A stretch of 64,000 bases of DNA from Schmidtea polychroa (taxonomy: Eukaryota). The stretch is taken from assembly GCA_044892525.1 (NCBI GenBank), contig CM097886.1:62062001-62126000 (forward strand), written 5' to 3'. The notes beneath the pieces are model-generated. The model was given only the letters and a program-made list of their open reading frames with translations, was not told the DNA's origin and ran no database searches. Positions 1 to 36,891 of the stretch are shown here, piece after piece. Made by a program: the position numbers and the translations under genes. Every line of letters begins with the position of its first letter. Position 1 is the first letter of the stretch.

Positions 1-49
1 TTTAAACTATATCTCTGTAGCACTTGATATTGATATTGAACCTTTACAA

Positions 50-1179: not shown

Positions 1180-1500
1180 TCATCGATTGTTGTCTTCAAA
1201 GAATTCAGTTTGGAGCAGTATTTAGTGGTATTAATAATTTTATTCGAAGAAAACAATTTGTAATATACCAATCCAACCATATACACAACATGACCTTTTG
1301 AGTGAATATTTTCTTTGGTGTTTTTCCTGTTTTCTCCATGACCTTTTGCGTTCTACATTATGATAAACAACCAACTTTTCATTACATTTTATCACGTGTT
1401 TAAGGACCGGCACCTTTTCATTTCTTTTGAGTAACAAATCACAAATAAACTTCTTTTCAGTTAAGTTGTGAGGTACCAAAATATCATAACGACTAATATC
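1180..1500 (-). mobile_element. mariner transposase relic
   Basis: ORF 1240-1479 begins VPHNLTEK (WVPHEL motif) and contains HVIKCNEKLVVYHNVERKRSW (IxTGDEKWxxYxN-like). Confidence 0.75.
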
Positions 1501-7500: not shown

Positions 7501-8289
7501 ATGATTGAAAATTAAAATATAAAGTATTTATTTAATGCTTGTGTACGAATATTCAATTATTAACTCATGCGTGTGAAAATATTCTCAAAGCTAAAAACAG
7601 AGATTGTTTAAATAAGAGAGATTTTGTGTTGTGTTTAAAAATATAGTTTTCTTTTCTTTTGAAATATTATGGATGTTATTAATTCAAGAAATCAAATTTC
7701 TAATAGCGTGAATAGTTATTAAAGATATTAAATTAATTGTTTTAAACTATAAATAAAAGTAGGAAGCTCTTGACTAAATTGGTGTCACTTTGTAGCTACA
7801 GAGATTAGTAAAAAGTATTTAACAATATTCTGAAAAGCAAAATAAAAACAAATTCTCCATGAAATAATAGAAGACATTTAATTAGAAATTGCATTTTAAA
7901 AAAAGAAGATATAGGAAAACTTGATTGACAAAAGCTAAAGAAGTTTGTATTATTTAGAAACACGGGAATGATTACAAGAACTATTCAAATACAACCCGAT
8001 TACTGGAGAAAATAAGATCATGTTTGACTGAGGAGTTTACATGTTTTCAAAAATTCTCGCAGTATTTTTATTTGATAAATAAATGAGTTTAGATTTATTC
8101 ATATTGTTAATTTTCTTTTGTAAATATTTTTAAGTTCTACTATGGATTTGTAAGGTTCTTTGGATGTTAAGAAATTAAATTTAAATAAAAAGTAAGTAAT
8201 ATTGGAGCACTTGAAGTAATGAGAAAATTTAGAAATTGTTTGGTTTTAAATAATATTAAGTAACAATTTTCAATAAAAATACAAAAAAA

Positions 8290-8480
8290 ATAAAAAATTA
8301 ATCAAACTTATATTCTGTTAACGTTATATTGAATTATAAATATGTTGTTAACAGCTTGTTATATTAATATTATGTATGTGAAGATGTGCTGTGTCAAAAA
8401 GATTGTTAGGCCCATTCGATTCACCGGTAAAATCTGTTTAGGAACAGCTGGGAGGCTTGTCGGTATATGTGTGTAATGCA
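8290..8480 (+). repeat. 5' conserved block of the Helentron/DINE-like repeat family, partial copy
   Basis: The block gcccattcgattcaccggtaaaatctgtttaggaacagctggg resembles the conserved block of the copies at 28.9, 33.4, 51.8 and 53.6 kb. Confidence 0.45.
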
Positions 8481-10011
8481 TAGGTTAGTGAATACAGTAA
8501 AAATGAAAAATATTTTTAAAATACAAAGTTTATTTAACCACAGGAAATAAAATACATAGATATCCAAAACATTTTTCATACTTTGAATTTTAATATCTTC
8601 TTTAAATCTTCATATTTCATAGTTTTATATTTCCTTCCACTTTGCAGTGTTTTAAATTATTATTTAACATTTTTTATTTTTATCTCTTTAGTAAATATTT
8701 GGTTTTCTTCTTTTTTTCGATGGGGATAGTAATAAATAAAATAAGAGTAACGTTAAATTCTCTTTAATTTCTAGAATGAATAACAAAACCATCCTTCGTA
8801 TGTTGATAACTAAATATAATTTTAATTAATTGCTTTCCTTTTTGAAGTTCACAATATTTTCTCAACTGTTTCTATTAATCAATCTGAACAGACTACGATT
8901 TATTCGAAACAATTTATTTTGATATTTTTAATTGTTTATTAAGTTAATTATTTTGTTAGTTAAGAATTTTTTGTTTAAATATATTTTTTTGTAATTTCAA
9001 ATTTCTGACTCTTCTGCCATTCATTTTATTTTTAACTGATTTTTCAAATTAAAATTCCCAATAATTAATTAATTTTTTTGCATTTACATCTTTTCGTGCA
9101 TTTTTACATTAGGTCAATTAATTTTTATCATATGTTTTATTCATGAGAATTTTCTCACATAAATTATTATTTTTATTTTTTACAAATGAAACAAAAATTA
9201 AACAAAATCCGTTATAATCCGAAATCAAAAGTATGAAGTAAGACGTTTTGAAGGATGAAATGTTCCTCAATTCAAACAAAGATAAAAGTAAGGAACAAAG
9301 AAATAGTTGTAAATTTAATAATTAAAATTTGATAAATTCAAAAAATTCAGAAATATTGTTAATATTATTTAAAAAATTTTCTTGCAAATAAAACAAGTAA
9401 TAATAAATATTTTTTCAAACCTAAAACATTGTATTTGATTGTATTTGATATATTGTATATTAAAAATGCTTCAAAAAATTATTTCGTTTATTTCTATAGA
9501 AAAAATATATCCAAATAAAATAACAACTTTTTCAAATTATCAACTCCCAAAATTTCTGTATAAATTGTTTTTTTTGTAATAATCATATTTTAATAGATAC
9601 CCAGCGGTTAAATTGACTTCTCTTTAACTTCGAAATTATTACTTTTGAATATTTAAGTTAAGTGTTTAAAACGCGTTAGGTCATTAAAACAAAAATCAAT
9701 GGTTGCCACAGAAATATTTCTCATAATGTTGTTTTAATTGCTTATAACTGCCAGTTAAATTATTCATGAGTAGTTGTTTTTATCGTTGAGCAGTTTCTGA
9801 TTGAAATTGCAGATTTATTTATATTTTAAGGAAAATATTTTTACATATTTTCTGTTATTTAAGTTAAATTTCAATATTTGACAACTAAATCTCCGCAATT
9901 TATAAAATTTGAAACCAAAACACTGAACAAAAAATTACGAATTACTCTTTTCGAAGGTTATTGAAAATCGAAAATAAAATTAATAAAATTTAAAGAAATA
10001 TATTAAATTTT

Positions 10012-10330
10012 TTAATTTAATACAACAATCAATACATACAATATACAAAAAAAAATTATTTAAAAAAATTTAAAATACAAGTATTCACTGCATTCTACAC
10101 ATTAATTTTCCGATTCAATGACAAATTTAGGCTCATCATCCTTGCTCACACTATTTAATTTATTTAACTCATCAGACTCATACACCTCAACAACAATTTG
10201 TGAGGCGTTGTTGATAAAGTCATTGATTACGAAAATTATTGTGCAGAATGCAGTGAATACTTGTATTTTAAATGTTTTTAAATAATGTTTTTTTGTATAT
10301 TGTATGTATTGATTGTTGTGTTAAATTAAA
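10012..10330. mobile_element. Foldback MITE with ~110-bp imperfect TIRs
   Basis: 10012-10122 (...tacaacaatcaatacatacaatatac...aaaatacaagtattcactgcattctacaca...) is the inverted copy of 10219-10330; spacer ~95 bp. Confidence 0.75.
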
Positions 10331-10823
10331 TAATTAATAAAATTTTTTAAATTATTAAATTAAATTCTAAATGCTGAAATATATTAAATGTTAATAATAT
10401 TTATTTAAAATTATATTTAACCATTACATTTATTTTTCACTCTTCAAAATTTTTAATCATTTTTATAATTACTATAATTTATATCTTACTAAAAGTTATG
10501 AGCTGTAAATGTGTTCTATTTTTCGAAAAGAAACTATTGGAAATTATTGCATTGGTATTCAGAACAGGTTTACAAATTTAATCAATATTTTTTAATTATT
10601 AAATTTAACTAATTATGATGCACTTATTTTAATTAGTTTAATAAATAATTAATTAATAATTAGTTAGCATATAGTTAGCATCTAGTTATGATCCTCATTA
10701 TTTTATGTTAATAAACGTTATTTTCAAAAGTTTGAGTAGGGACCTGTCCTTATTTCGAAAATTTTAGTATTAGATATATTACAATAATTGTTATTCTATA
10801 GTTTTTATTGTGAGCATTGTTAA

Positions 10824-11133
10824 CCACTTGCGCTATATTGACGTACCAGGCACGTCTTGATGATTTTTTTCAGAACTGCAAGTGACGTGTATACCACGTC
10901 GATAGTATTTGTCGCAAAAACAAAGACAAAAGTAGCTTATTGATTAATAAAATTTATTGTTGTTGTGAATAATTATTTATATTCGTGTAAATCTTTTATG
11001 TAAGACCCTACCCTCGCGCTAAGCACTGGTCAAACCTCTGAGCTTGCTGACGCGGTGAGGCGTCGATGCCTTACGATACTTTATATAGTAGAGCGCGGCT
11101 TGGCTACCGAAAATTAAATCATAGCGCAAGTGG
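10824..11133. mobile_element. piggyBac-like MITE (310 bp)
   Basis: 13-bp TIRs CCACTTGCGCTAT (10824-10836) and ATAGCGCAAGTGG (11121-11133), flanked by TTAA and TTAT. Confidence 0.7.
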
Positions 11134-11349
11134 TTATAAAACTAGAAAATCGTAAATTTGATTAACCTAAATTTAAAAATTAATATTTCTATAGATTTTT
11201 ATAATTTCGGGCGATTATTAAGAATTTGCAAAGAATCAATCAGAAATATAATTTATAAATATAAAAAATTTAATAAATTGTATTTGTTACTTAATTACTT
11301 AATAAAATAATAATAAAACTCACAATATTGCAATAATTCCAAATAATAA

Positions 11350-11900
11350 TAATAACATCTAAAACTCCTGAAAAATTAATTAAAAATAATTTATAATAAA
11401 AAATGTTGATAAAAAGTATTATTTAAGAGCTTGAATAATGATCTCATAACTATATGGATCAATATTCAAGCCTTAAAGTTTACTTTAAATAAAAATAAAT
11501 TACTTGAAAGCCATTTCTAAAATGGCTAAATACAAATAGTTAAAATATCTAAATAAAATAGCTAAATTAGTAGTTGAATGCATGTAGTTAAATTAACCAA
11601 ATGCATTCCAAAAACTTTCATTATACACCTAATTCCAGAAGTTAAAAGTCTCTATAATACATGTTGGTGTGTTCATCAGTCGATGACTCACCATTTATGA
11701 GAGTGTTTATTTCATTTTTTCATGTACAATTCAATTTTATTTTATGGTTTTAGATTCTAAAATTTAGAAGAAAGGTTTTTAAATTTAAGTATATTTTAAG
11801 ACTTGAATTTTGATTTTATATAATTATGAGATCATTATTCAAGCTCTTAATTATTACTTGATAATTAAATTTCAGGGTGTTTATTTAGGTATTTTACGAT
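11350..11900. mobile_element. Foldback element with ~170-bp degenerate TIRs
   Basis: Perfect 27-bp core ttaagagcttgaataatgatctcataa (11423-11449) is inverted at 11824-11850, and similarity extends on both sides. Boundaries approximate. Confidence 0.65.
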
Positions 11901-12489
11901 TTTCGAATTTTTTCTTTAATTCCAATGATGTCGATGGAACCTGTTGAATAAATTCACACAAAGGCGTTTGACTAGAAATATCTGATATGCTGTAAAATAT
12001 TTTAATTATTTGTAATTAAATGAAAAAATTCTTACATTGTCAGATCTTCACCTTCGCAAAATGGAAGTGTTTCCAAAGAAATATTTGAAAATCTAAAGAA
12101 ATATTAACTTCAAAAATATTTTGTAAATAGATCTTACGATGTTTTGTCGTCACTTTTATTGAAAACTTAAAGTTGAGTTGTCCAATTCAAAATCCAAATT
12201 TTTTTCAGCCATGAATTTTAATAATTTAAAAATAATGATATGTTAACAATACTTTCTATTTTCGGAATATAAAAAGCTATATTAAATTTGTGTGTATTTT
12301 ATATTATGTGTGCTGTGTTTGTATGTAAAATTATTTTTCTGTCACTTTCTCAATTCCTATAATAAAACTTTTAACTTTCGAAACATTAAATTTTTGCACA
12401 CAGGTAAGTTTGTGTGTTTTTATATTATAATTTAATCGATTTTTATTTTAGATTATGGAAACTTTTAACTTTCGGAATTAGGTGTGAAG

Positions 12490-12545
12490 AATGACGCATC
12501 TATAATTGGTTGTACATACCAACCCATATTATAGATGCGTTTATT
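12490..12545. other. ~56-nt hairpin just outside the Polinton left end
   Basis: acgcatctataat (12494-12506) pairs with attatagatgcgt (12528-12540), plus an inner ggttg/caacc stem and a ~7-nt loop. Confidence 0.6.
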
Positions 12546-12669
12546 CAGTGCAAACGGGTGTATGACGCTCATATACACGATTACTGCCAGGTTGATGTAT
12601 TTTAATTTGAGTCTTTTTATATTTAATCGATTGTTTTAAACCAATGACTTTCAAACTTCAAAAGCTCGG

Positions 12670-12876
12670 AGTAGTGGACGTATGGCCTTCACGGACCCAA
12701 CCCTCCCTAGCCGTCCAGCTTAAAAACTACTAATAATTAAACATTTTCATGTTTTTAACCATTTATTTTTACATCTTTTATTCATAAAAACCCCTAATTT
12801 ACCAACCCAAATCCTTAATCCCCTGACAGGAACCGAGGATCCAGGTTACATCCGTGAAGGCCATACGTCCACTACT
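12670..12876. repeat. 207-bp unit bounded by perfect 26-bp inverted repeats with Polinton-type AGTAGT...ACTACT ends
   Basis: agtagtggacgtatggccttcacgga (12670-12695) is the exact reverse complement of tccgtgaaggccatacgtccactact (12851-12876). No 6-bp TSD (gctcgg vs ataaaa). Confidence 0.85.
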
Positions 12877-12958
12877 ATAAAAAACTATAAAAATTTTAAA
12901 TATTAAAAACTAGCAATCGGCGCAATTTGCATACCCAATAAAAAAATTTTTTAAAAAA

Positions 12959-15900
12959 ATGAATATTGAAATTTTGAATATGTATAATTGTAACATGTGT
13001 AATAAAAGATTTAAAAATAGAACAGCATTAATATCACATGAAAAATCTAAAGAGCATTTATTAAAGACGGTTGGACTAAATGATACAAACTCAAAACTTT
13101 GTCCTAAATGTAAAGAAAGATATTTACTTTTAGGATATGATAAACATTTTAAAAACTGTATTGGGATTAAAAGAAATAGAAAAAAATTTGAATGTCCTAT
13201 ATGTAGATTGAAATTCACCACAGAATCTTATTATTTAAAACATTTAAAAGAATGTGCTATTGTTAAAAGAGATCCTGAAACTGAAGAAGATATAAAAGTT
13301 AGAGAAGAAGAAGAAGAATACGAAGAAGAAGAGATTGAAAAAGAAAAATATAATTGGGACAACTTTAACCATGTAGATAAATTTGAACAAACATTTATAT
13401 TCTCTTCATCTTTAGAGTATATAAATAAAAATAAAAAAAACATAAAAAAATCAATGGAAGATGCTATAAAAAAATTTGGTAAATCAAGATTTAATATTAT
13501 TAAATATAAAATTAGAATCCATTCAAGATATTGGAGAGGAGAAAATGTAAACACAACACCCTTGGATGCTATAATTGAAACATCTTATGATTATTTATTC
13601 TCAACCGATGGATTTAATAAAAAAATCAAAGAGATTATTCATAAAGTTGCAGATGAGCATAGAGTGGTTGAACAAGAATTAGGAGAGTCAAACCTAAAAT
13701 TCCTTTCATTTCAATCACTTGAAATTGAATATTGGAGAGGGCACCTCCAAATCCTAAATCATATATCCCTACACTCTTTACTTCTATTCATATTATAAAT
13801 GTTCGAAATAAGGATAATAAATGTTTCCAATGGTCAATCCTTGCACACTTACATCCTCAAGAAAATCATAAAGAAAGACCTGCAAAATATAAGCAATATG
13901 AAAATGAATTAATATATCCAAAAGGATTTGAACACCCAATGAAGATTGAATACATTCCAAATTTTGAAAAATTAAATAATATTAAACTTAACATTTATGA
14001 ATATATTTGCCAGGTGGGTGATAGGAAACATATTATTCCTATCCATGTTTCAGATAGAGAATTATCAGAACAAGATAAAAATAGAGAAATATATCTTTTA
14101 ATATTACAAGAACATAAAAGAGAACAAGTCTATAAGGAATATGATGATCTGGATGAGGAAGAACAATATTTAAATATTGAAGATGATCAAGAAGAAGACC
14201 TTGAAGAGGAAGATGAGGGGAAACAACATTATATTCTAATAAAAAACTTTCAAAGCTTTATGAGATCGAAAAATCACCACAGTGGTGGAACAACATGTAA
14301 ACGGTGTTTATATTATTCAGCTTCAGACATTGCAGCATTTAAACATGAAAGATTATGTTGTAAGAACTTGCCAGCATTAATTAAAATGCCGAGCAAGGAA
14401 ATGTCCACCATGCATTTTAAAAACTTTTCAAACCTGTTACAATCTTTAGGTGTAATATATGGAGACTTTGAAGCCATAAATATAAAACAGGATTTAGACC
14501 AAGAATATTTAAAAATAATAGAAAAAAATAATCTATTAGACTCTTGGAACCAAAGGACTGAAGGAATCTCCATGAAAAACGTTTTAAAATTAAATAATAA
14601 ATCATACACCATAAAACTAACAAAACGAGTAGCATCAACATATAAATTATTTTTTAAAAGTAATTACCCCGACCTCATAGACTCTGAAGAATTTTCATTT
14701 AGAGGATCCTCAGAAGAAGAAACTCTAAATCATTTTACTAAAGACATAAATGATTTAGAACATAAAATCTTTAAAACCTTAAAAACAAACTTCCCAATAA
14801 ACTTTTCAGACCAACAATGGGAAGAATATGAAGACTGCACAACTTGCTCGATGTGCAAACAGCCATTTGAGAATCAACTCTTTGAGGATGATATAAAAGT
14901 TCCTGACCATGACCACTTTAAAAAAGAAAATAATTATAGGGGAGCAGCCCATAAAAACTGCAATATAAATTGTAAAAGACCTGCATTTGTACCAGTTATA
15001 TTTCACAATCTTTTTGGTTATGACATCCACCTATTTATAAAACGTCTAGCTGTAAATGCTAAAAATTCCTTCAAAGTTATAGGACTGACAAAAGAAAAAT
15101 ATAAATGTGTTCAATACGGTCGATTAAAGTTTATAGATTCATTAAACTTTCTATCAATGTCCTTGGATGGAATAGCAAAAACCATGAAACCTGAAGACTT
15201 CACCCATACAATTGAAAAAGTATTAGTAAAAAATAATATTCCCCAGGAGGAATATAAAACCTGTTTGGCAAAAGGAATCTATCCTTATGATTACATCAAC
15301 TCATTTGATAGATATAATGAAACATCTTTACCCCCTCAAGACTTGTTTTTTTCAATATTAAATCAAACTGGTATAAGTGATCAAGAATATGCCCGAGGGA
15401 ATAAAATGTGGGAACTTTTCAAATGTAAAAACATTGGGGATTATACTGACATGTATTTATCCCTTGATGTTTATATCCTTGCAGATTGTTTTGAAGGATT
15501 TTGTAAGGCATTTGAATTAAAGCCTTATAATTATATAACATCTCCATCTTTAGCCTGGGATATTTTATTATATACAATGTGGACAACGGAGTCCTCTCGG
15601 ACTATAGAACTATTAACTGAAATCGACATGTTTAATGTACTTAAAGAAAATATTCGTGGAGGTGTTAGCTCCGTGATGGGAGATAGAAATATAACTGCAA
15701 ACAACTTTATATCTCTATACAAGAAATTCTTTAGTGAAGATCCTGAAGCAGACTTTATACAAATAAAAACAGAAGAGGATTCAAAATTAATAAAGGAAGG
15801 ATTATCAAATCCATCATAGATTATGTATATAGATGCAACAGCTTTATATTCAGGAATAATGACTCAATACCTTCCAATTGATAACTTCATTCAGGTTCCT

Positions 15901-17363
15901 GTCCCAGAGGAAAAGGATCTCCTAAGAAAACTTATGAATGAAATATTATCAACTGAAAAAGATTCAGAAGTGGGATATATAATAGAATGTGATTTAGAAT
16001 ATCCTAATGATATAAAATATGTAACTAGATACTTTCCATTTGCGCCAGTGAAAAGAAAAGTAGATTCTAATGAATTATCACCCCAACAAGATAGACCTAC
16101 AACTGTAAAACATTTATGTGATCAAACTGATAAACTTTGTATCTTTGTCATTATCGACTGTTACAATTTTATCTTTCTCATGGAATGAAAATAAAAAATA
16201 TACATTCTATAATAAAGTTTAGACAACTTCCATTCATGAAAACCTTTATAGAGGGAAATATTAAATCTAGGAATGAAGCAAAAAGAAATGGAAACGCTTT
16301 CCTCGATATGATTTATAAACTTTTAAATAATTCAGTCTTTGGAAAGACAATGGAAAATGTTGACAAATATACTCGAGTAGAATTATTGACAAATAGTTCA
16401 AAGGATTTTGCAAGGTATAATCGAATGCTTTCAAAACCTACATTTAAAAATGCAGAAATCTTTTCAGATAACCTAATAGCCGTTGAACTAAAAAATAGTG
16501 AAAAGACTTATAACAAACCAATCTTAATAGGTTTTACCATTTTAGAATTATCAAAACTTCAAATGTATGAAACCTATTATGATATTCTACTACCACATTT
16601 TAAAAATAGAATATCAATGCATGCAATGGATACGGACAGTATGTTTTTAAAAATATATACTAAAAACCTAAAAGAGGAAATATCTGAAAATGAAATCCTA
16701 AGGAATTTAATAAATTCATCTGGAGAATTATTCACCTTTAAAAATGAAAAACCTAATACACCAATAATTGATGCTGTATTTATTAGGTCCAAACAATATT
16801 CACTAGAAATGATTGAAGCCCCAAAGATTGAAACCCATTCAATTAGGATCGAGGATCAAACATTTTCGATACCAGTATTAATACCTCCAAACCTTGTAAC
16901 ATCTAAAGATAATAAAAATAAAGGTATACAGAGAGCAGTTTCTAGAACTATACCCCATCAAGACTATAAGGATATTCTAAATAAAAATCAACCAGATAAA
17001 ATAGTTGAGGTTCATCAACTTAAATCTGAAAAGCATAACATGTATTTAGAAGAATCAAATAAAATATCATTATCAAATTATGATGATAAGAGGTATATTT
17101 TATCAGATTTAAAAAAGACACTTCCAATTGGAAATGATATGATTCCACATATAAAAAATTTAAAGAACATTTCAGATCTTCAACTGTATGAACTTCGAAT
17201 ACTTTACCCTGAAAGAAGTCGAAATGACTATTTGGAATTACATCTTGAACAAAATCCTATAAACCTAAATGATTACATCTTAGACGTTAAAACCATACCA
17301 GCTTCAGTCATCAATGAAGGAAAGTCTCTGATAATAACTGAAAGTTTAAAAAATAAATTATAA
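12959..17363 (+). pseudogene. polB: Protein-primed family B DNA polymerase (pPolB) with N-terminal Zn fingers and an Endonuclease VII-like insert; 2 frameshifts and 1 stop
   Basis: ExoI YGDFEA, ExoII FHNLFGYD, ExoIII YLSLDV, motif A YIDATALYSG, motif B KLLNNSVFGK, motif C MDTDS; CSMC...DHDH...GAAH..CN insert. Frameshifts at ~13730 and ~16135; in-frame TAG at 15817-15819. Confidence 0.95.
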
Positions 17364-17478
17364 AATGACTGAAATACAATCAATTTTCGAAAACTTAAAG
17401 TCTTTAACAGATGATAAAATTTTATTAAAGTTTTGAATAAACCATCTGTTTCAATAATAAAAATTTTTTCTTTTATAG

Positions 17479-17766
17479 TTATAACATCTTTTTTATTTGC
17501 TCTTTTATTTTCTCTCGTTCTACCTTGGTTGAAGTCTTTCTGGCTTTAATCTTTTTATGGATTTTCATCAACCCTTGTTTCAGATGATCTCTTTCAGTCT
17601 CTATATCATTTATAATCCAAAGTAATACAGGCTCTCGAATAGCAAGTTGCGCAGCTTGCAGGGCTTTATCCTCTGAAGATTTCTCATTATATTCTTTTAA
17701 TGCAAGACTTGATTGCTTTTTAATAATAGGATTGCTTTTTATCAAATTTAAAACACGTTCATTCAT
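17479..17766 (-). CDS. Polinton hypothetical basic coiled-coil protein (95 aa)
   Basis: Intact ORF; its ATG overlaps the upstream stop (TATAAATGA). No recognisable family. Confidence 0.65.
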   Translation of the reverse strand: MNERVLNLIKSNPIIKKQSSLALKEYNEKSSEDKALQAAQLAIREPVLLWIINDIETERDHLKQGLMKIHKKIKARKTSTKVEREKIKEQIKKML

Positions 17767-18160
17767 TTATATTTGCTAAATAACAGGGTCTGGGGTCCGG
17801 AGGTTAAAGGTCCGGAGGTCAAAGGCTGTTGATCTAAAATATCTTCAACATCTTCAGGTCCGGAGGTCAAAGTTGTAGAGACTCCTGTCCCGGAGGCTAA
17901 AGGATCTTTCCTTTTATACTTCTTAGACTTGATGCATTTATGATTTTTTTCAACTACATTAGAACAATCATTACAATAAACACCCTTTTTCTCTATAGCC
18001 TTCCTCTTTTTAGTTGCATGCCTATAGGGAGAATCAATTCCTAAATCTTTTCTAATTCTTCTCATTGTAGAATCTGAAGTACCAATCATTTTACAAATTT
18101 GAGTCTGAGAAAAAGTAGGGTTTTCACTCTTTAATCTTGCAAATTCAAAGACTTTCTCTT
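17763..18160 (-). CDS. Polinton HTH DNA-binding protein with CxxC motif and LTSGP repeats; original start probably disrupted
   Basis: The frame is open upstream of the listed Met: FEFARLKSENPTFSQTQICKMIGTSDSTMRRIRKDLGIDSPYR is HTH-like. Also YCNDC...HKC. Confidence 0.65.
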
Positions 18161-18193
18161 TTTGTTGAATCTTGTTTAATCATTGAAAGTTGT

Positions 18194-18430
18194 TCAATTT
18201 TTTTTATAAAGCCATCCATTTATTAGTTGAGGAAATAAAGCAAAATAATATTCTCCTTTTCCAATTTGGTCTTGTATACTTAAAGATTTAAATTTAGTTA
18301 TTTTATTTAAATAATCAGGGTCATTAATTCCTACAAGATAAAAGATGTAACACTTTTCACCTATTCTAATTTTATCCTCTAATGATAAACTTCTAAAATC
18401 ATTCAACCTAGAGTTCATTATTTCTTCCAT
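18194..18430 (-). CDS. Polinton small protein with internal two-fold repeat (78 aa)
   Basis: FRSLSLEDKIRIGEKCY and FKSLSIQDQIGKGEYYF are repeated ~35 aa apart. Confidence 0.55.
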   Translation of the reverse strand: MEEIMNSRLNDFRSLSLEDKIRIGEKCYIFYLVGINDPDYLNKITKFKSLSIQDQIGKGEYYFALFPQLINGWLYKKN

Positions 18431-18456
18431 TTTTAAATTTAAAAATTATACAGGTC

Positions 18457-19020
18457 TTACGTCGAAGTCTTTAACCATTTCTCTCGTTGTAGTTTTTTAG
18501 AATATTCAGTCTTAGTTTTCAACTTTATAACTTCATTTTTAATATCCCTTATTATTTGATTTGATTTCATTATTTCATCATCTGTTAGGATTCCATCTTC
18601 CAAAGCTTTTAATTGAAATAAAAATAATTTTGATATCCCCAAGTCTATTGTCAAACAAACTTCACGATATAAACTTTTCTTTTTTGAAGTATAAGATAAA
18701 GAAAGTATTACAGTCAAGAAAGAATCTGCAACAGAAATACTTCCAAGTATTATAGGTGCAAGAGTAACAACTGGTAAAGTTATAGGTAAAACAATTGTAA
18801 GTATTGCAGATGTAAATCCTAAGGAGTAACCTATAATCTTTAAAGCTGTATTCCCTTTATTCCATCTTTTTTTAATTTTTTTATAATGCTTCAACAAGTC
18901 TTGTAAATGTAAAGTTTCTGATTTAAATTCTTTCACTCTCATGACTTCAAGTTCTGTAGGAGCTGATGGAGTCAATACTGGATAGACTACTTGACCTCCC
19001 GGACCTTTTGGACCTTCCAT
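18457..19020 (-). CDS. Predicted two-TM membrane protein, like the membrane-active (so-called GasderminX-type) ORF of adintoviruses
   Basis: HYKKIKKRWNK followed by two hydrophobic segments (IIGYSLGFTSAILTIVLPITLPVV; APIILGSISVADSFLTVILSL) and a helical tail. Family assignment from memory. Confidence 0.65.
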   Translation of the reverse strand: MEGPKGPGGQVVYPVLTPSAPTELEVMRVKEFKSETLHLQDLLKHYKKIKKRWNKGNTALKIIGYSLGFTSAILTIVLPITLPVVTLAPIILGSISVADSFLTVILSLSYTSKKKSLYREVCLTIDLGISKLFLFQLKALEDGILTDDEIMKSNQIIRDIKNEVIKLKTKTEYSKKLQREKWLKTST

Positions 19021-19028
19021 TTTAATAA

Positions 19029-19934
19029 TTAAAAAAATAAGACTTTATTATCTGGTACCAACGCTCGCATATTATAAGAAGCTCTTTTTGAGAGAATGTC
19101 TTTATACAATTCTATCAACGCTTTACGAACTTGATCAACATCAACCTTTTTTTCATAAAATATTAAATCTATATAACTTACAAGTGTGCTTTTAAAAATA
19201 ATATTCTTACTTTTAACTTTATGTGTTTTATGTGAATCAGTATTATCATGCCAATGTCCATGTGGTAAATCATAACCAGTTATTATAACTTCATCCTTTT
19301 CAAACATACTATTATAATCACATTTTACAAACCATTTCATTATTTCACCATCATCAGTAAATAAAAAGAAATAAGGATCAATAATCTTTACAACCATAAA
19401 ACAAGACCATTCTTTACTATTTGTTGTTATTAAAGTTGGTTCTATAAAATGTTTATATGTATGGGGTAATAAAGTTTTATTCTGTTCTAATTCAGCAGCT
19501 CTTTTTCTAATAATGTGTGTTGTATGAGACTCTAATTTAACAAGTCTTACATTAAATGATGCAATCATCTCATTTATTATATTATATATTGTATTAATTT
19601 TATTATCCATAAGTTTTTTATGCATAAGTCTTTTATTTTTTAAAATTGATATTGTGTCAGTTAACCTTTGAGTTTCTTTGGCTATCTTTAAGGCTTCTTC
19701 ATTTAATCGTTGTTCGATATTATTAAGCTTGGATAGCTTTTCATCTACATATTTTTTATTAGTTGCATCAAAGTCATCAATCGGAGGACCTAAATCTTTT
19801 ATCTTGTGAGCATTTAAATTTAAATGACCCTTCATTGAATCTCCTACTTCATTAACAAATCTTTTTTCTGTAAGGTTTATAACATCTTCATCTTTTAATC
19901 CATCATTATATAATCCTAATTTATTATAATTCAT
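19029..19934 (-). CDS. Putative fibre/receptor-binding protein (301 aa)
   Basis: GDSMKGHLNLNAHKIKDLGPPIDDFDATNKKYVD matches the phage tail-fibre-type GDxMxGxL...IxxLxxP...DAxxKxYVD unit. A coiled coil and a beta-rich C-terminus follow; adjacent to penton. Confidence 0.6.
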   Translation of the reverse strand: MNYNKLGLYNDGLKDEDVINLTEKRFVNEVGDSMKGHLNLNAHKIKDLGPPIDDFDATNKKYVDEKLSKLNNIEQRLNEEALKIAKETQRLTDTISILKNKRLMHKKLMDNKINTIYNIINEMIASFNVRLVKLESHTTHIIRKRAAELEQNKTLLPHTYKHFIEPTLITTNSKEWSCFMVVKIIDPYFFLFTDDGEIMKWFVKCDYNSMFEKDEVIITGYDLPHGHWHDNTDSHKTHKVKSKNIIFKSTLVSYIDLIFYEKKVDVDQVRKALIELYKDILSKRASYNMRALVPDNKVLFF

Positions 19935-19943
19935 TTTTATAGT

Positions 19944-20696
19944 CTAAACTTGTTTCAAATGTAAACACATTGAAATCTTTTCTCCATTAAAATTAATTAA
20001 TTCTCCATTTTCATCAACAATTTTAAAATGAATACTCATCAAGTTTTTTCTACATAAAGGTAAATAATTTGGAGGATTCATTCTTTCAACCATTTTATAT
20101 CCAACTCGAACAACATTAGAAGGAAAGGAATATAAAATATTTGCATGTTTACCATTATTATATGATCCCATTATACAATCACACTCTATATTTATAGAAT
20201 TTATATTTGTTATTTGTATAATATTTTTAGATTTAATAGTTGATGGTAAGTATTCTTTGACTTCAAAACCTAAAATAGTATGAAAGAAACTAGAAGCTCT
20301 AACATCAAGTCCAACTTCTTTTAAAGTTGCAATACATTTTGAAGTTTGAATATCTGCTTTTATTTCTATATTTCCATTTGTTTCTTTTAGAATTGCTTTA
20401 CCTAAATCTATTAATTCATATGCTCCTGGTTCGATTATTTTAGTGTAGTGGTCTTCAAATCCAGTATATTTCATCTCCCTCGTAAATATATTAAATTTAT
20501 TATTTTTAATATTTATATTAAAAATAGTATTAAAACAGCTAAACCACAAGAGTCCTAATTCATAATTTAAATTTTGATCTAAATTTATTGAATCTTCAAA
20601 ATTTATACTAAAATCTGTTTCATTTGAATTTATTAATAAACTTCTTGAATATTTATCTGACATTATGTTTACCATTTTTTTTAAATTATCTTCCAT
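19944..20696 (-). CDS. Minor capsid protein (penton, single jelly-roll)
   Basis: Typical Polinton mCP patterns: DFSINFEDSINLD..YELGL, INIECDCIMGSYNNG...LYSF, IHFKIVDENGELINFNGE. Confidence 0.85.
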   Translation of the reverse strand: MEDNLKKMVNIMSDKYSRSLLINSNETDFSINFEDSINLDQNLNYELGLLWFSCFNTIFNINIKNNKFNIFTREMKYTGFEDHYTKIIEPGAYELIDLGKAILKETNGNIEIKADIQTSKCIATLKEVGLDVRASSFFHTILGFEVKEYLPSTIKSKNIIQITNINSINIECDCIMGSYNNGKHANILYSFPSNVVRVGYKMVERMNPPNYLPLCRKNLMSIHFKIVDENGELINFNGEKISMCLHLKQV

Positions 20697-20698
20697 TT

Positions 20699-21139
20699 TT
20701 ATAATAGAGGTTTTAAATCTTTATAAATTTCTTGGATTATAGATTTAAAAGAGCAGTCTCCCTCTGAGGTATTTAATCTATACAAAACATATAAACTTAA
20801 AATACCACATATTTTAGTATTATTAGGTTGAACTTGTAAAGAATTAAAAATATATTGGGACTTCATCCAGTCTTCTACTTCTTTAGTACGTTTAATCCCA
20901 AAAGAATCAAAGTATATAGATTTATTATATATACAAACCCAATGAGATCCTTTTTCATTTGAATCTTGATAATTGATTATTATATTATCCTTTAGTCCTT
21001 TCAGACTTGACAATTCATCATTCATTAATATTTTAATTTTTAAATTTAAATAATCTGCATAATCTTTTAAATCAAAATTTGTTTTTACATTTATTCCAAA
21101 TGTTTTTAAAAAATCCAATATACTTGGAACAGCCTTCAT
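20699..21139 (-). CDS. Adenain/Ulp1-like cysteine maturation protease
   Basis: Catalytic H (GSHWVC), D (YFDSFG), oxyanion Q and C (QVQ...KICG). Confidence 0.92.
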   Translation of the reverse strand: MKAVPSILDFLKTFGINVKTNFDLKDYADYLNLKIKILMNDELSSLKGLKDNIIINYQDSNEKGSHWVCIYNKSIYFDSFGIKRTKEVEDWMKSQYIFNSLQVQPNNTKICGILSLYVLYRLNTSEGDCSFKSIIQEIYKDLKPLL

Positions 21140-21972
21140 TTTATATATTTATTAAATTTACTTTTTGAAAGCATTCCTTGTTTTAATAAATCTTTTGAAA
21201 TCTTTAAAATATCAGAATCTAAATTATTATGTCCTGCTTTTTTAGCAGCTAATAGTTTTCTCAATTCTATAAACTTAGAGATTGGATCTAGTTTGAAGGT
21301 CGTTCCGAGGCCTTCTTTAACAATATAGCCCCTTTCATTTTTATTTAAATAATTCTTTAAATCTTGAATATGTTTAGCTTTTGGACTACCTCTTACTAAT
21401 TTTATAAAATTTAAATATTTTTCAATTTCTTTAATATCATCTGAAGGATATCCACAAATTAATCTATAAAAATCATCTGTAAATTCATAGTCTAAATATT
21501 CATTATTATAAACATTTTGAGAATGAATATGATTTTTATTTTCAGAGTTTGTATATAAAGTAAAGTTTTGTTTATTAATTGTTATAATTTGATATCCTTC
21601 AGGAGTAATATTAAATATAGGTTTAATTGAATCAGATAAACCCTCTCTAATTTTAGGATCAACTTTAAGAGGTTTTGTATTTGAAAGTATTTCTTCTTCT
21701 ACACCTGAGAGTTTTCTACGTTTTCTTTGATTCCTTTCGGCGGTTGGTCCTTCTATGGCTTTAATACTTGGATTCTCTATAGTTTTAGGACCTTCAGTCT
21801 TTATGGCTTCTATCGCTTTAATTATCGGTTGTTGTTGTTGAGTCATTGTAGAATTTAATGCTAAAGATTCAGAGCGTTGAGTCGTATCTTTTATATTATA
21901 TGTATCTTGTTCTGATTGTAATTTTTTTAAAAGTGCTAATCTTTCTTCATATACCATTTTATATACCATCAA
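21136..21972 (-). CDS. Polinton conserved hypothetical protein (278 aa; probable start MVYEE at 21957)
   Basis: Intact ORF with C-terminal LRKLLAAKKAGHNN...LLKQGML helical motif of a kind recalled from Polinton ORFs. Confidence 0.7.
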   Translation of the reverse strand: MMVYKMVYEERLALLKKLQSEQDTYNIKDTTQRSESLALNSTMTQQQQPIIKAIEAIKTEGPKTIENPSIKAIEGPTAERNQRKRRKLSGVEEEILSNTKPLKVDPKIREGLSDSIKPIFNITPEGYQIITINKQNFTLYTNSENKNHIHSQNVYNNEYLDYEFTDDFYRLICGYPSDDIKEIEKYLNFIKLVRGSPKAKHIQDLKNYLNKNERGYIVKEGLGTTFKLDPISKFIELRKLLAAKKAGHNNLDSDILKISKDLLKQGMLSKSKFNKYIK

Positions 21973-22054
21973 TTTACCATTCTTCTTCTATTTGACCTTC
22001 GGACTCTTCTTCTTCTTCGGATTCAACAACTTGAAAATACAACCCTTTACCATT

Positions 22055-22507
22055 TTAAGTTTTACAGAGGCATCCATTCTTTAAAGATTTACATATTTTT
22101 TTTAAATCATCTTTATCTTTTGAAGATAAAGATTCAGATGTAGAAATTTGATTTTTTAAAAAATTATTTAAACCTCGACCTTTATAAGGATTGAGATATA
22201 GCCCCTTACCCTTCTTTTTCATTGAATCGATTTCAGTTTGTAATTTTTCTTTTTCTAGGTCTGTCTTTTGAGATTCTTTAGCTTTTTGAACTGTAGTTGC
22301 AATTCCTCCAGCTATTCCAGCTGCACCTGATAAACCTGTAATGATTGCAGGTATTAAAGCCATTAGGGGAAGAATCCCTCCAGTCTTCAGTCTTTCTTTA
22401 ACTTGTTCTTTTACATTTTTTCCAATAAAATATTTTTTTCCATCAATTACTACTGATTTATTTTTATTTGAATTTATGAATTCTTGTAAAGATTCTTCAG
22501 TTGTCAT
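22055..22507 (-). CDS. Adenovirus pX (pre-mu)-like core protein
   Basis: TGGILPLMALIPAIITGLSGAAGIAGGIATTVQ resembles the adenovirus pX tail GGILPLLIPLIAAAIGAVPGIASVALQ. Likely start MTTEE at 22507. Confidence 0.75.
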   Translation of the reverse strand: MTTEESLQEFINSNKNKSVVIDGKKYFIGKNVKEQVKERLKTGGILPLMALIPAIITGLSGAAGIAGGIATTVQKAKESQKTDLEKEKLQTEIDSMKKKGKGLYLNPYKGRGLNNFLKNQISTSESLSSKDKDDLKKICKSLKNGCLCKT

Positions 22508-22523
22508 TTTATAATAAATAAAA

Positions 22524-23309
22524 ATGGATACTTGGAAACCAATTTTAACTCGGCACAAGAGTAAATTTAATAATAAATTATTTCCTGATAATTTTAGATT
22601 ATTAATCGTTGGGTCTTCAGGTTGTGGAAAGAATGTACTTCTTTTGAGAATATTACTAGAAGAAGGGTTTTTAGATTATAATAATTTAATCTTTTATTCT
22701 ACAACCATAAATCAACCAGAGTTACAACTTTTGAAATGTGGATTTGAAAATAAATTAACTAAAAAAGCTATAATTGATATTTTTAAAAATCAACATAGAT
22801 GTCCTGATGAGGTTTTTCAACCTTGTGATATGATTGATTGGTACAAGGAAAAGATTTTAGAATCAGATATTGATAATAAAAATGATTATATTTATGAGGG
22901 TGAGGCAATTAAAGTTTTATTCTCTAATAAACCTGAAGATGTTTTACATTGTGATTTACTTCCTAAAGATGTAAAGAATCTAGTTATACTTGATGATGTT
23001 GTCAATATGAAAAACCAAGAGATTCAAAAGAGTTACTTTACACGAGGTCGACATAATAATTGTAATGTTATTTATATATCTCAAACTTATTATGCTTTAG
23101 ATAAAAACTCTATAAGAAATAATTCTAATTGTTTTATATTTTTTAAATTAGAAAAGCGTGATAAGAATATGATTTATAGTGATTTATTTTCAAATGTTGA
23201 ACCTGATAAGCAAATGTTTGATATGTTTGTAGATAATCATTGGAAAGAAAAATATAATTATATTTATTTGGATAGAGAAGAAGGTGAAATATGGAAATGT
23301 TTATTTTAG
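22524..23309 (+). CDS. A32/FtsK-HerA-type DNA packaging ATPase
   Basis: Walker A GSSGCGKN, Walker B LVILDD, and FTRGRHNNCNVIYISQ motif. Confidence 0.93.
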   Translation: MDTWKPILTRHKSKFNNKLFPDNFRLLIVGSSGCGKNVLLLRILLEEGFLDYNNLIFYSTTINQPELQLLKCGFENKLTKKAIIDIFKNQHRCPDEVFQPCDMIDWYKEKILESDIDNKNDYIYEGEAIKVLFSNKPEDVLHCDLLPKDVKNLVILDDVVNMKNQEIQKSYFTRGRHNNCNVIYISQTYYALDKNSIRNNSNCFIFFKLEKRDKNMIYSDLFSNVEPDKQMFDMFVDNHWKEKYNYIYLDREEGEIWKCLF

Positions 23310-23320
23310 AGCTTGTCGAC

Positions 23321-24060
23321 TTAGAAATCTGTTTTTTGTAGTTCATTATTATAAAATCTACCTAATATTTTTTCATTATTTAAATCAATGATGCTATATG
23401 TTATTGGAATTGTATAATGTATTTTATTTATAATAAAAATTTCATTTGTCCATTTTGCTGTGAATCCTTTTTCAAATTTATTTTTATATTTAAATATTCT
23501 TACTCGGTCACCAATTTTAAACTTTGGTTTTTCATTTACCACTTTAGCGGTTTCAGGATTTATAAGTTTTAAAGGATTCAAGGAAGCATTTAAAGGTGTT
23601 GATTTTATAGAACTATGTACATCATTATTATATTCATTTACAATCTTTTGTAACAATTTATTGTTCCATTTTTGTTTTCCAATAGCAGTAAAATATTTCC
23701 ACATTTTATTTTTTAATGTTCTATTTAATCTTTCAACCACAACTGCTTTTCCTTCGTTTTCTGTTGAATATAATTTAATATCATTTTCATTTAAAAACTT
23801 TGTAAAAACTTTGTTATAAAATTCTGTTCCTTTATCACACCATAAATATTTTGGAATTCTTTGATGTTCTTCAAATATATTTTCAAATGCTTCTGTAATA
23901 GAATATCCTGTTTTATTTTCTAAACATCTTGCAAAAGCAAATCTTGTATATAAATCTATTACTGTTAAAACTATTTTATATTTTTCAGGGTCTGATGATT
24001 TGGTTGGCATAAAGACTAAATCAGCGGACCATGTTTGATCTTTTTCATGTATTTGAACTT
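23321..24060 (-). CDS. Retroviral-type (rve, DDE) integrase domain; no chromodomain
   Basis: TWSADLVFM (D1, in frame just upstream of the listed Met), LWCDKGTEF (D2), VVERLNRTLK (E). Confidence 0.93.
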
Positions 24061-24220
24061 TTAAATATTTTTTATTTTTCTAAATTCATTGTGTAATTCA
24101 TTGGCATATTTTATTTGTGATTCTGTTGGGAATAATAAACTAGTCTTGGATGCACTCTCGAGTTGATTCTCAATCTCTGCTTGTTGAATAATCTTTTTGT
24201 TGGCAACATCTTTTGCTATT

Positions 24221-24700
24221 CTAGGGTGTCCAGCTCCAAAGGTGGCTCTGGCTCCAAAAAAAGATCTTACCTTTCATTGCTAATTTAACTAGAGCTCTTT
24301 GAATCTTTTCTTGGATTGATGGGTTTTCTATATTATTTAAATCATGTATTAAATTAACATCTGCAAGATGTCTATCCCTAAGGTCTTGAGAATTGTAAGC
24401 AATATCATGTTTTAAAGCTGCTTGATCAATTCTATTCACTGGTTCTTCTCCGGGTTTGGGATTATTATTTTCATCAAGTCTAATATCTAGACGGGTTCCA
24501 GGTCCAGTAAAATTGTGATCGAATAAATGTCTTTCACCTGGATATTTTTCAGTTGTAAAGGGTTTCAATATTGAAGATGTTGTTTTTGAAGATTGAAGAT
24601 CTCCTCCAATTCGAGATGTATGTTTTTTAGTTTTAACATGACTGGCTTTATGATGTTTTCTAACTTGACAATTACAAATTTCACATTTCCAATAAGACAT
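24221..24700 (-). CDS. Zn-finger plus parvovirus VP1u-type phospholipase A2 domain (PLA2X); frameshifted from the downstream integrase
   Basis: Ca-binding loop FTGPGT and catalytic DQAALKHDIAY; N-terminal CEICN...HVKTKKH finger. Confidence 0.88.
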   Translation of the reverse strand: MSYWKCEICNCQVRKHHKASHVKTKKHTSRIGGDLQSSKTTSSILKPFTTEKYPGERHLFDHNFTGPGTRLDIRLDENNNPKPGEEPVNRIDQAALKHDIAYNSQDLRDRHLADVNLIHDLNNIENPSIQEKIQRALVKLAMKGKIFFWSQSHLWSWTP

Positions 24701-24708
24701 TTTAAAAA

Positions 24709-25972
24709 CTATAAATTACCCCGTACATTTTCAATTATTGAAATCTTTCCACCATATAATTTCATTTCTATTTTCTTTTCTTCTAATATTAATGTATATA
24801 CTTTAGCTTTAAAATTAGAATCCTTTGTTATATGAAGTGTAACATCAACATTATTTATAGCTAGACGATCATCTTGATCGGAAACAAAATATAGAATATA
24901 AATTTTTGAAATCTTCTAAACTTAATTGTGGTTCAACTTTAAAATCATAACATGTTTCAATATAATTTAGATATGGGAATATGTTTTCATTATTTTCAAT
25001 ATTAAATTCCATTCTATTTATTGGATAATAAGAATTATTTAATTGAATTTGTATCGATTTTAAATTATCATCTCCAATCTTTTGAATAAACAAGTTGTTA
25101 TTTTTTTGGAAAGATGAATCTGTTTCTTTGAATCCAATTAAGATATATCTCGGTCGGTATGCAAAGTTTGCTACCTTTATAGAATATGTTGAACCCTCTG
25201 TCATACTAAATTCACTACAGATTCTATTTAAATAATTTACATTTATAGATTTGTTGGAATTTAATCTTTCAAGGAGTTTAATCTCAGAATGTGGATTTAA
25301 TGTCCATTCAGGTATATGTAATTCAAGTGTTGATAATTTTAATTTAGCTTTTGTATCTACAGCTCCATAGAACAATTTTTTATCACCTTCTAGTCTATTA
25401 CAGTTTAATTCTATAAAAACATTATGAAGTATACGATTATAGTTTTGAAGGAATCCAAATAAGTGTTTTAATTCAAAATAACCTTCAAATTTTTTAGATT
25501 TATAAAGTTCAACTCTTTTATAGTATCCAAAATTTACATCTAAACCATCTTTATCTAAATCCCCTTTATTAACATCAGGAATCCAACCTGTTAATTCTCC
25601 ATATTCATTTTTATAATCACAACTAGTTAATATAAAATTTAACATTGTAGAATATATTCCTGGATATAAAACAGTTTCAATTTCTGATGATCCTAGTTTT
25701 TATCTCATGTTGGAGAATAAATTTGGAAAGAAATTGTTTTCTAGAGTTATATCTTTGTTTGCTTCAATTTCTAATTCAATTTTATAATATAATTTAGCAT
25801 TACAAATATCTATAGGGTTTGATGTTTGAAGAGATTGAAAAACTATATCACCCCTACGATTTAAGTTTGCAATAGATCCTGAAGTTGGGGAGATTTTTAA
25901 AATATCAATTTTTTTAATTTCATGCATAAATTCTTTATTGTAATCAAGATTTAATTTATTTTTATTATTCAT
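24709..25972 (-). pseudogene. Major capsid protein (double jelly-roll), ~420 codons, with 1 stop and 1 frameshift
   Basis: In-frame TAA at 25700-25702 links the 90-aa and 258-aa ORFs. A frameshift near 24880 restores SDQDDRLAINNVDVTLH...LYGGKISIIENVRGNL*. Motifs include ELKHLFGFLQNYNRIL and RPRYILIGF. Confidence 0.85.
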
Positions 25973-26076
25973 TTTTTATATTACTAAATTAGCAATTGCG
26001 CAGCTTGCTAGTTTTTAAGATTTAAAATTTTTAGAATTTTATAAATATAAAATTTTAAAAAATGACAAAAATCCGA

Positions 26077-36573: not shown

Positions 36574-36891
36574 TGTTAGAAGCTATAACATTTAATTCTT
36601 CTGTCATCAAAATAAATTACTAAGACTATTAAATCCAAAAATTATATTTCATTAAATCTGATTATATAAACAAATATTCTTGGGACATTTTCTAAATTTT
36701 AATTTCAACCAAATATCAACATACCATCGCATTCATACTTGAATTTCAATTTTATTAAAAATTATTTTATTTTAAAATTTCAATTATCATTTCAATTTTA
36801 ATATCTTAAAATAATTTAAGTTTCAATTAAAATTTTACAAATTTTAATCATGAACTAATTTAATTTAGTATTTTAATTTTAACTCCTCACA
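36574..36891 (-). repeat. 3' LTR
   Basis: tgttagaagc...aactcctcaca; matches 41316-41633. Confidence 0.96.

What the first reader, a model, noticed from the sequence alone, without database searches (positions are those of the whole stretch)
12670..26050. Endogenous adintovirus-like virus with a full virion and entry gene set
Seen: pPolB, ATPase, integrase, protease, MCP and penton, plus a fibre-like ORF, a two-TM protein, a pX-like core protein and a PLA2 domain, all in ~13.4 kb. Established: this gene set defines Polinton/adintovirus-type Preplasmiviricota. Inference: the host lineage, possibly a flatworm, has or recently had a particle-forming virus with two candidate membrane-penetration routes (PLA2 and a TM/amphipathic protein).
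Basis: partly seen in the sequence, partly recalled or inferred. Interest (0 to 1): 0.7.

Follow-up and report, generated by a model that had tools for sequence, protein, structure and literature searches.

The report
Maverick with phospholipase fused to integrase
This is a broken copy of a well-known kind of virus-like jumping element (a Maverick/Polinton), but its membrane-cutting phospholipase is joined to its integrase in one protein, an arrangement shared by dozens of intact relatives, which would let the virus particle carry its own integrase into the next cell.

Summary
The gene set is real: pPolB, ATPase, integrase and PLA2 by Pfam, penton and major capsid by fold, protease by motif. 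But this copy is a fossil: pPolB, MCP and integrase carry seven breaks, the right end is missing and there is no target-site duplication. PLA2, pX-like and 2TM genes are already described in Alpha/group-2 Mavericks, so the set as posed is ordinary. 32 of 50 longer relatives carry both domains in one chain (best 86% identical), with intact catalytic residues and conserved Gly-Gly/Gly-x-Gly motifs on both sides of PLA2; the pX tail of the usual PLA2X is a separate gene. Likely mechanism: a packaged PLA2-integrase polyprotein cut at maturation (inferred; the strict adenovirus cleavage motif fits poorly). Four paper searches did not show this fusion. The flatworm host could not be tested. The scan noted other Mavericks in this genome before, but not this fusion.

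The parts
12670..12876 (.). 207-bp left-end unit with perfect 26-bp terminal inverted repeats that begin AGTAGT and end ACTACT; no duplication of the flanks; either the element's own left end or a mini-element sitting on it
   Evidence: (AGT)2//(ACT)2 is the commonest Maverick end motif (PMC8097293 section 7)
12878..12927 (+). left arm of a 50-bp inverted repeat (inner TIR remnant) leading into the pPolB start codon
   Evidence: (I7, 88%)
12959..17363 (+). protein-primed DNA polymerase B in four pieces: 12959-13798 (C2H2 fingers, acidic tract, presumed terminal protein), 13729-15819 (OTU-like Cys/His motifs by eye, endonuclease VII-like insert, exonuclease), 15820-16188 and 16134-17363 (palm motifs); two frame changes and one in-frame stop
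   Evidence: zf-met E 4e-11; DNA_pol_B_2 E 1.5e-7; PF03175+PF02945 clusters, score 0.95
17479..17766 (-). 95-aa basic ORF, no family
17763..18179 (-). small helix-turn-helix-like ORF; first in-frame ATG lies inside the HTH match, so its start may be damaged
   Evidence: HTH_29 E 0.07; DNA-binding PHROG E 0.0016
18194..18430 (-). 78-aa ORF with an internal near-repeat, no family
18457..19020 (-). 187-aa membrane protein; residues 62-112 are nearly uncharged, enough for a two-helix hairpin; SLATT/DUF4231-like as a lead
   Evidence: sequence; peak hydropathy 2.38; unnamed clusters 0.92; DUF4231 at 0.82, 16% of members
19029..19934 (-). 301-aa fibre-like ORF: one copy of a phage tail-fibre-type repeat, a helical stretch, an unassigned C-terminal domain
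   Evidence: phrog_2710 tail fibre E 1.3e-5; repeat shared with L001 fibre ORF
19944..20696 (-). penton (single jelly-roll minor capsid protein), uninterrupted
   Evidence: (pLDDT 86.8)
20699..21139 (-). adenain-like maturation protease with His, Asp, Gln and Cys motifs, uninterrupted
   Evidence: sequence; (38% to L001 protease, E 1e-13); no Pfam or PDB sequence hit
21136..21969 (-).
   Evidence: 29% over 307 columns to L002, E 3e-17; C-terminal motif shared with L001, E 0.005
22055..22507 (-). pX-like basic core protein: Gly-Gly followed by a hydrophobic/amphipathic 18-mer, then Gly-x-Gly motifs; its tail resembles the X tail of a classic PLA2X
   Evidence: (Adeno_PX E 0.008), (40% over 35 aa to L001 PLA2X tail, E 0.004)
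22524..23309 (+). A32/FtsK-type packaging ATPase, uninterrupted; the P-loop departs from the Walker A consensus at one position
   Evidence: Pox_A32 E 2.7e-10; sequence
23321..24700 (-). PLA2-integrase fusion gene in three pieces (24221-24700 PLA2; 24061-24273 linker and integrase N-terminus; 23321-24079 DDE core and SH3-like end, no chromodomain); two offsetting frame changes in the linker
   Evidence: P0062 residues 4-463 map to 24694-23324 in one frame, 80%
24709..25972 (-). double jelly-roll major capsid protein in three pieces (25700-25972, 24869-25699, 24709-24915); one in-frame stop, one frame change
25994..26043 (-). right arm of the 50-bp inverted repeat leading into the MCP start codon; no terminal motif beyond it

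Best explanation
This is a decayed copy of an Alpha/group-2-like Maverick (Polinton) whose phospholipase A2 domain is fused in front of its integrase, and in intact relatives that polyprotein is likely packed into the capsid and cut by the element's own protease. Shown: the gene set, both jelly-roll folds, the seven breaks, the missing right end, the fusion in relatives, the invariant PLA2 His-Asp and integrase D-D-E residues, and conserved glycine motifs on both sides of PLA2. Inferred: (1) PLA2 is a virion core protein, as proposed for PLA2X, so it drags the integrase into the particle; (2) the adenain-like protease cuts at the Gly-Gly / Gly-x-Gly sites, as at similar sites in the pX-like core protein; (3) freed PLA2, helped by the amphipathic pX-like peptide, breaches the endosome, and the integrase arrives with the genome, so integration needs no new protein synthesis, as in retroviruses. 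Odds: Maverick 0.98; this copy non-functional 0.9; fusion ancestral to this copy 0.95; packaged and cut 0.45.
For: Fusion: 32 of 50 hits of 280-2000 aa carry PF08398+PF00665 in one chain; P0062 covers both window ORFs in one frame; the middle piece has no ATG of its own. Breadth: 33 of the best 150 clusters at 50% identity hit both domain profiles, 32 with PLA2 first; Pfam confirms both domains in 25 of those 33. Constraint: PLA2 His 32 of 32, Asp 31 of 32; integrase D, D 32 of 32, E 31 of 32. Flanks: G-G-D before PLA2 (29, 27, 29 of 32 by column), invariant K and G after it, GG or GxG there in 28 of 32; GG/GxG in 3 of 122 control windows from the integrase part. The pX-like ORF has such motifs and resembles the PLA2X tail. 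PLA2X is proposed as a virion core protein and a related adomavirus core protein was found cleaved in virions (PMC8502044; 10.1101/341131 passages).
Against: The strict adenovirus motif (M/I/L)xGG or (M/I/L)xGxG fits only 2 of 32 upstream and 7 of 32 downstream sites. The flanking glycines also occur around PLA2 in an unfused PLA2X (L001), so they may be inherited or structural. Fused and unfused integrases are interleaved in the tree (18 changes, at least 11 forced by well-supported branches), which fits easy gain and loss between neighbouring genes, or truncated gene calls. A core protein is needed in many copies and an integrase in few (general knowledge). No RNA, protein or particle data. 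The two breaks in the fusion gene lie near homopolymer runs of 7 and 6, so some breaks may be assembly errors; the other five do not.
Confidence: 0.55

Rival explanations
1. The fusion stays uncut: PLA2 works while attached to the integrase, for instance helping the integrase-DNA complex across the endosome or nuclear envelope.
For: Poor fit of the strict adenain motif (2 and 7 of 32); both active sites are kept; linker length varies widely, as a flexible tether would.
Against: Glycine motifs are kept on both sides of PLA2 at 40-60% overall identity, far above background, and match those in the pX-like core protein.
Confidence: 0.2
2. The fusion is a near-neutral accident: PLA2 and integrase are neighbours, and the stop between them is lost and regained often; it only couples their expression, and the integrase is not a virion protein.
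For: Scattered distribution on the integrase tree; one record has the reverse order (P0210); 117 of the best 150 clusters show no PLA2.
Against: The window's own clade is 13 fused of 16 with support 99; the label is far more clustered than shuffles (18 against 29 changes); unfused rows include short, probably partial gene calls; a classic Alpha element has integrase and PLA2X three genes apart (L001).
Confidence: 0.2
3. One reading: this locus is an intact or nearly intact provirus with two separate membrane-penetration genes, and the breaks are assembly errors.
For: Penton, protease, ATPase, pX and fibre ORFs are open; MCP is 95% identical to an uninterrupted relative; a neighbouring Gypsy element with 300 of 300 identical LTR bases also has a frame change, so the assembly may hold indel errors.
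Against: Two in-frame stops and three frame changes away from long homopolymers; right terminus and target-site duplication absent; TIR arms only 88% alike; PLA2 is not separate.
Confidence: 0.05

Closest known systems
Alpha adintoviruses / group-2 Maverick-Polintons (Mayetiola class; Starrett 2021 PMC8502044; 10.64898/2026.06.19.733378)
   Same: pPolB, rve integrase, FtsK/A32 ATPase, adenain, hexon, penton, fibre, PLA2, SLATT-type gene; pPolB with an endonuclease VII-like insert as in the Spodoptera Mavericks (PMC5803895), which are mapped in the Alpha panel
   Different: PLA2 is fused to the integrase rather than to pX (no PLA2X); pX-like protein is a separate gene; integrase has no chromodomain; no direct comparison with the Mayetiola or Terrapene references was possible
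PLA2X / CAP of insect Mavericks (example L001 from IMG/VR)
   Same: Parvovirus-type PLA2 with GPG loop and His-Asp (32% over 135 columns, E 1e-10); glycine motifs on both sides; X-like tail recognisable in the window's pX ORF
   Different: In L001 PLA2X is a 195-aa stand-alone ORF and the integrase is separate and ends in a weak chromodomain match
Vertebrate Mavericks (Barreat and Katzourakis 2021, PMC8097293)
   Same: (AGT)2 end motif, 13-kb size, core genes; most copies (96%) are broken fossils like this one
   Different: 'phospholipase' does not occur in that paper's main text; gene order differs; intact copies have two TIRs and a 6-bp duplication
Retroviral Gag-Pol polyprotein (recalled, no call)
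   Same: Works like it in the proposed model: integrase enters the particle fused to a virion protein and is freed by the viral protease
   Different: Unrelated capsid and protease, DNA genome, PLA2 as carrier; packaging and cutting are not shown here

Membership tests
Maverick/Polinton (Polintoviricetes) | [quoted passage not shown] | tested here: met
   Pfam DNA_pol_B_2 above cut-off; PF03175+PF02945 clusters; gene is broken
Maverick/Polinton (Polintoviricetes) | retrovirus-like (rve) integrase | tested here: met
   rve E 1.8e-12, D-D-E present
Maverick/Polinton (Polintoviricetes) | double jelly-roll major capsid protein | tested here: met
   PF21738 E 1e-16; Z 21.8 PBCV-1, 20.7 Sputnik
Maverick/Polinton (Polintoviricetes) | single jelly-roll penton | tested here: met
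   mavirus penton E 3.7e-11, adenovirus penton bases
Maverick/Polinton (Polintoviricetes) | A32-like packaging ATPase and adenain-like protease | tested here: met
   Pox_A32 E 2.7e-10; protease His/Asp/Gln/Cys motifs and 38% to L001 protease
Intact (potentially active) Maverick, criteria of PMC8097293 | uninterrupted core ORFs | tested here: not met
   seven breaks in pPolB, MCP, PLA2-integrase
Intact (potentially active) Maverick, criteria of PMC8097293 | two TIRs with end motifs and a 6-bp target-site duplication | tested here: not met
   end motif on the left only; 50-bp 88% remnant; flanks differ
Adintovirus as defined in 10.1101/2024.03.25.586562 | integrase with C-terminal chromodomain | tested here: not met
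   no chromo hit, protein ends 5 residues after the last integrase motif; 24 of 32 fused relatives end likewise; chromodomain in 6 of 33 distant fusions
Adintovirus as defined in 10.1101/2024.03.25.586562 | PolB with N-terminal OTU-like domain | tested here: inconclusive
   Cys and His motifs seen by eye in 13729-15819, consistent with PMC11161782 section 8; not folded or profiled
Adintovirus as defined in 10.1101/2024.03.25.586562 | hexon recognisable by BLASTp against known adintoviruses | tested here: inconclusive
   25%, E 7e-17 to the hexon of unnamed Alpha-type L001; named references not available
Alpha class (Mayetiola) versus Beta class (Terrapene) | PolB, hexon and penton cluster with the class reference | not testable with these tools
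   reference sequences lay in a cut supplement; indirect signs favour Alpha: PLA2, endonuclease VII insert, best viral fold hit a Cotesia bracovirus protein
PLA2X gene class (Starrett 2021) | PLA2 domain followed by a pX-like C-terminal domain in one ORF | tested here: not met
   PLA2 continues into integrase; X-like tail is in a separate ORF
Animal-associated element | integrated in an animal genome | tested here: inconclusive
   gene-poor 23-26% GC flanks with a ferritin-like exon, hAT and Gypsy pieces; phylum not determinable

The most novel reading that the evidence does not exclude
A broad, unrecognised group of Mavericks uses a retrovirus-like trick: the entry phospholipase doubles as a packaging tag that loads the integrase into the capsid as a polyprotein, and the capsid protease frees both at maturation, so the incoming genome can breach the endosome and integrate at once without prior gene expression.
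Probability: 0.4. Interest if true: 0.7.

Novelty: new variant of a known kind. Interest (0 to 1): 0.42.

Why it matters
Whether animal Mavericks make infectious particles, and how their integrase reaches a newly entered genome, are open questions. A covalent join between a predicted virion entry enzyme and the integrase, kept with both active sites across dozens of diverged families, is indirect evidence for a particle stage and gives a simple single-protein test (activity, cleavage, presence in natural particles). The locus itself is an ordinary fossil; the value lies in the architecture it reveals.

Tried and rejected
No genome is held for the window, so copy number and other copies of the ends were not examined; no read data were obtained on the breaks. 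Viral-contig scans found nothing with ATPase, penton alignment A2, P0062 or the terminal 18-mer and one distant locus with A1; the metagenome scan gave one 2-kb locus. PDB sequence searches failed for penton and protease. My first guess of a Beta-class polymerase was dropped. No TBP-like gene, noted in other Mavericks of this genome, was found among the 20 ORF pieces scanned. An intron reading of the pPolB breaks was not tested. I recalled that mavirus packages its integrase; searches did not confirm it, so it is not used. No flatworm entry was found in the readable part of the Starrett supplement. No complex prediction was run.
Full report
Observation. The stretch 12670-26043 is slightly richer in G+C than its left flank (0.27 against 0.23) and is packed with ORFs, while 1-12600 has a single ORF of 80 aa or more. 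Of 20 ORF pieces scanned, Pfam names C2H2 fingers, DNA_pol_B_2, Pox_A32, rve, Phospholip_A2_4 and DJR-like above their cut-offs and Adeno_PX weakly. The penton, folded with 26 relatives (pLDDT 86.8), matches mavirus penton (E 3.7e-11) and adenovirus penton bases. The MCP, read with X at its stop and folded with 20 relatives (pLDDT 81.8), matches PBCV-1, Sputnik, faustovirus and mavirus capsid proteins at Z 18-22 against an unrelated background of about 5. The protease has no Pfam or PDB sequence hit but keeps His, Asp, Gln and Cys motifs and is 38% identical to the protease of another Maverick, L001. The fibre call rests on one tail-fibre-type repeat. The 2TM protein has a 51-residue nearly uncharged stretch; its nearest Atlas clusters are unnamed, with DUF4231 as a lead under 0.9. 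So the gene list is right.

State of this copy. pPolB lies in four pieces (frame change near 13730-13800, stop at 15817-15819, frame change near 16134-16188), MCP in three (stop at 25700-25702, frame change near 24885), and PLA2-integrase in three. Two of the five frame changes lie by homopolymer runs of 7 and 6 (3% and 7% of random windows reach that); the other three do not. A neighbouring Gypsy element with identical LTRs also has a frame change, so a few indels may be assembly errors, but not two stops plus a lost end. The left end starts with AGTAGT, the commonest Maverick end motif (PMC8097293 section 7), but its first 26 bases recur inverted at 12851-12876, and the 18-mer occurs nowhere else in the window. 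A 50-bp, 88% inverted repeat (12878-12927 / 25994-26043) is all that pairs the two ends, and no 6-bp duplication flanks them. By the criteria of PMC8097293 (passages), where 96% of loci are fossils, this is a fossil. The family is less decayed: P0031 is an uninterrupted 431-aa MCP at 95% identity, in a cluster of 9 of which 7 are full length.

The PLA2 ORF and the integrase ORF are in the same frame, with the piece between them shifted and lacking an ATG. A search for longer relatives of the PLA2 ORF (280-2000 aa only, so stand-alone PLA2 could not appear) gave 50 hits; 32 carry PF08398 and PF00665 in one chain, and the other 18 are Lottia gigantea gene models. The best, P0062 (86% over the PLA2 part), maps residues 4-463 onto 24694-23324 in one frame. 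A profile of 25 fusions run over 1.84 billion representatives returned 150 best clusters at 50% identity; 33 hit both domain profiles, 32 with PLA2 first, and Pfam confirms both domains in 25 of the 33. None of 20 such clusters looked up carried an organism name. In the 32 closer fusions PLA2 His is kept in 32, Asp in 31, and the integrase triad in 32, 32 and 31. PLA2 is bracketed by G-G-D (29, 27, 29 of 32) and by invariant Lys and Gly, with GG or GxG in 28 of 32, against 3 of 122 control windows. The window's pX-like ORF has the same kind of motifs before an amphipathic stretch, and its tail resembles the tail of L001's PLA2X (E 0.004). The usual PLA2X thus appears split here: PLA2 on the integrase, X alone.

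Mechanism. PLA2X is proposed as a membrane-active virion core protein of Alpha adintoviruses (PMC8502044, parts 1-4 of 6 read), and a related adomavirus core protein was found in virions in a cleaved form, with glycine-containing adenain motifs (10.1101/341131 passages). If PLA2 is packaged, the integrase fused to it is too; cutting at the flanking glycines would free PLA2 for endosome escape and leave integrase beside the genome. Each of these steps is inference. Against it: the strict adenovirus motif fits 2 of 32 upstream and 7 of 32 downstream sites; the glycines also flank unfused PLA2X; and on a FastTree of 148 integrase domains (139 of the 150 representatives, 11 short ones left out, plus 8 closer fusions and the window) the fused label needs 18 changes (29 in shuffles; at least 11 forced), though the window's own clade is 13 fused of 16 at support 99 and some 'unfused' rows are probably partial gene calls. 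I give packaged-and-cut 0.45, uncut tether 0.2, neutral join 0.2.

Comparison with what is known. [quoted passage not shown] The polymerase resembles PF03175+PF02945 clusters, as do the Spodoptera Mavericks placed in the Alpha panel, so Alpha/group 2 is the likely class, untested against the references. The stated adintovirus definition includes an integrase chromodomain (10.1101/2024.03.25.586562 passages), which is absent here, so I file it as a Maverick/Polinton that works like an Alpha adintovirus. A PLA2-integrase fusion did not appear in the listings of four full-text searches or in the passages read from PMC3671162, PMC4028283, PMC11161782 (passages and section 8), 10.1101/2023.08.22.554363 (passages and section 8) or 10.1101/068312. 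Repbase, subscription papers, most of the Starrett supplement and the supplements of the preprints were not visible and may show it.

Host and earlier notes. The flanks look like an AT-rich animal genome (ferritin-like exon, hAT, Gypsy), but 'flatworm' could not be tested. Earlier notes of this scan record many Mavericks in this genome, some with a mini-TBP, spliced polymerase or rearranged ends; no TBP was found here, and look-ups for the fusion or this stretch returned nothing relevant.

Verdict. As posed, an ordinary, broken member of a known group. As corrected, a new variant: a widespread PLA2-integrase polyprotein that makes a sharp, testable prediction about Maverick particles. Interest 0.42; 0.7 if packaging and cleavage hold.

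Noticed in passing
window 12670-12876: 207-bp unit with perfect 26-bp inverted ends starting AGTAGT, abutting the inner TIR remnant; the right-hand TIR homology stops just where this unit would begin. Possibly a non-autonomous mini-Maverick or a self-inverted end; no other copy in the window.
   Followed up: partly
window 12878-12961 and 25970-26043: The inverted repeat runs up to the start codons of pPolB and MCP and shares an 18-base GC-richer motif found at only these two places and one looser match: a likely duplicated promoter driving both inward-pointing modules. Nearly all ORFs start after an A-run.
   Followed up: partly
window 36574-41615 (- strand): Ty3/Gypsy LTR retrotransposon with 300 of 300 identical repeat bases, yet a frame change inside reverse transcriptase near 38975-39005: very young broken copy or an assembly indel.
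   Followed up: partly
window 42605-43009 (-): Divergent ferritin-like exon (best PDB ferritin E 3e-7; no Pfam hit), next to N gaps.
   Followed up: partly
window 46325-46723 (-): Proteasome alpha-subunit fragment, intronless and diverged, inside a 56-bp inverted repeat pair (46865-46920 / 47221-47276 nearby); looks like a pseudogene or captured piece.
   Followed up: no
window 59873-60376 (-): hAT transposase C-terminal remnant.
   Followed up: no
P0074-P0109 (Lottia gigantea gene models): 18 limpet gene models begin with this same PLA2 domain; two run on into the integrase-linker motif, one into an integrase C-terminal piece and four into fibre-like sequence, so they look like mis-spliced models over Mavericks of this type in a mollusc.
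   Followed up: partly
P0210: An integrase-chromodomain-PLA2 protein, the reverse order of the common fusion.
   Followed up: no
window 9984-10357, 11401-11872, 2400-2547, 51151-51333: Several short inverted-repeat pairs typical of MITEs in the flanks.
   Followed up: no
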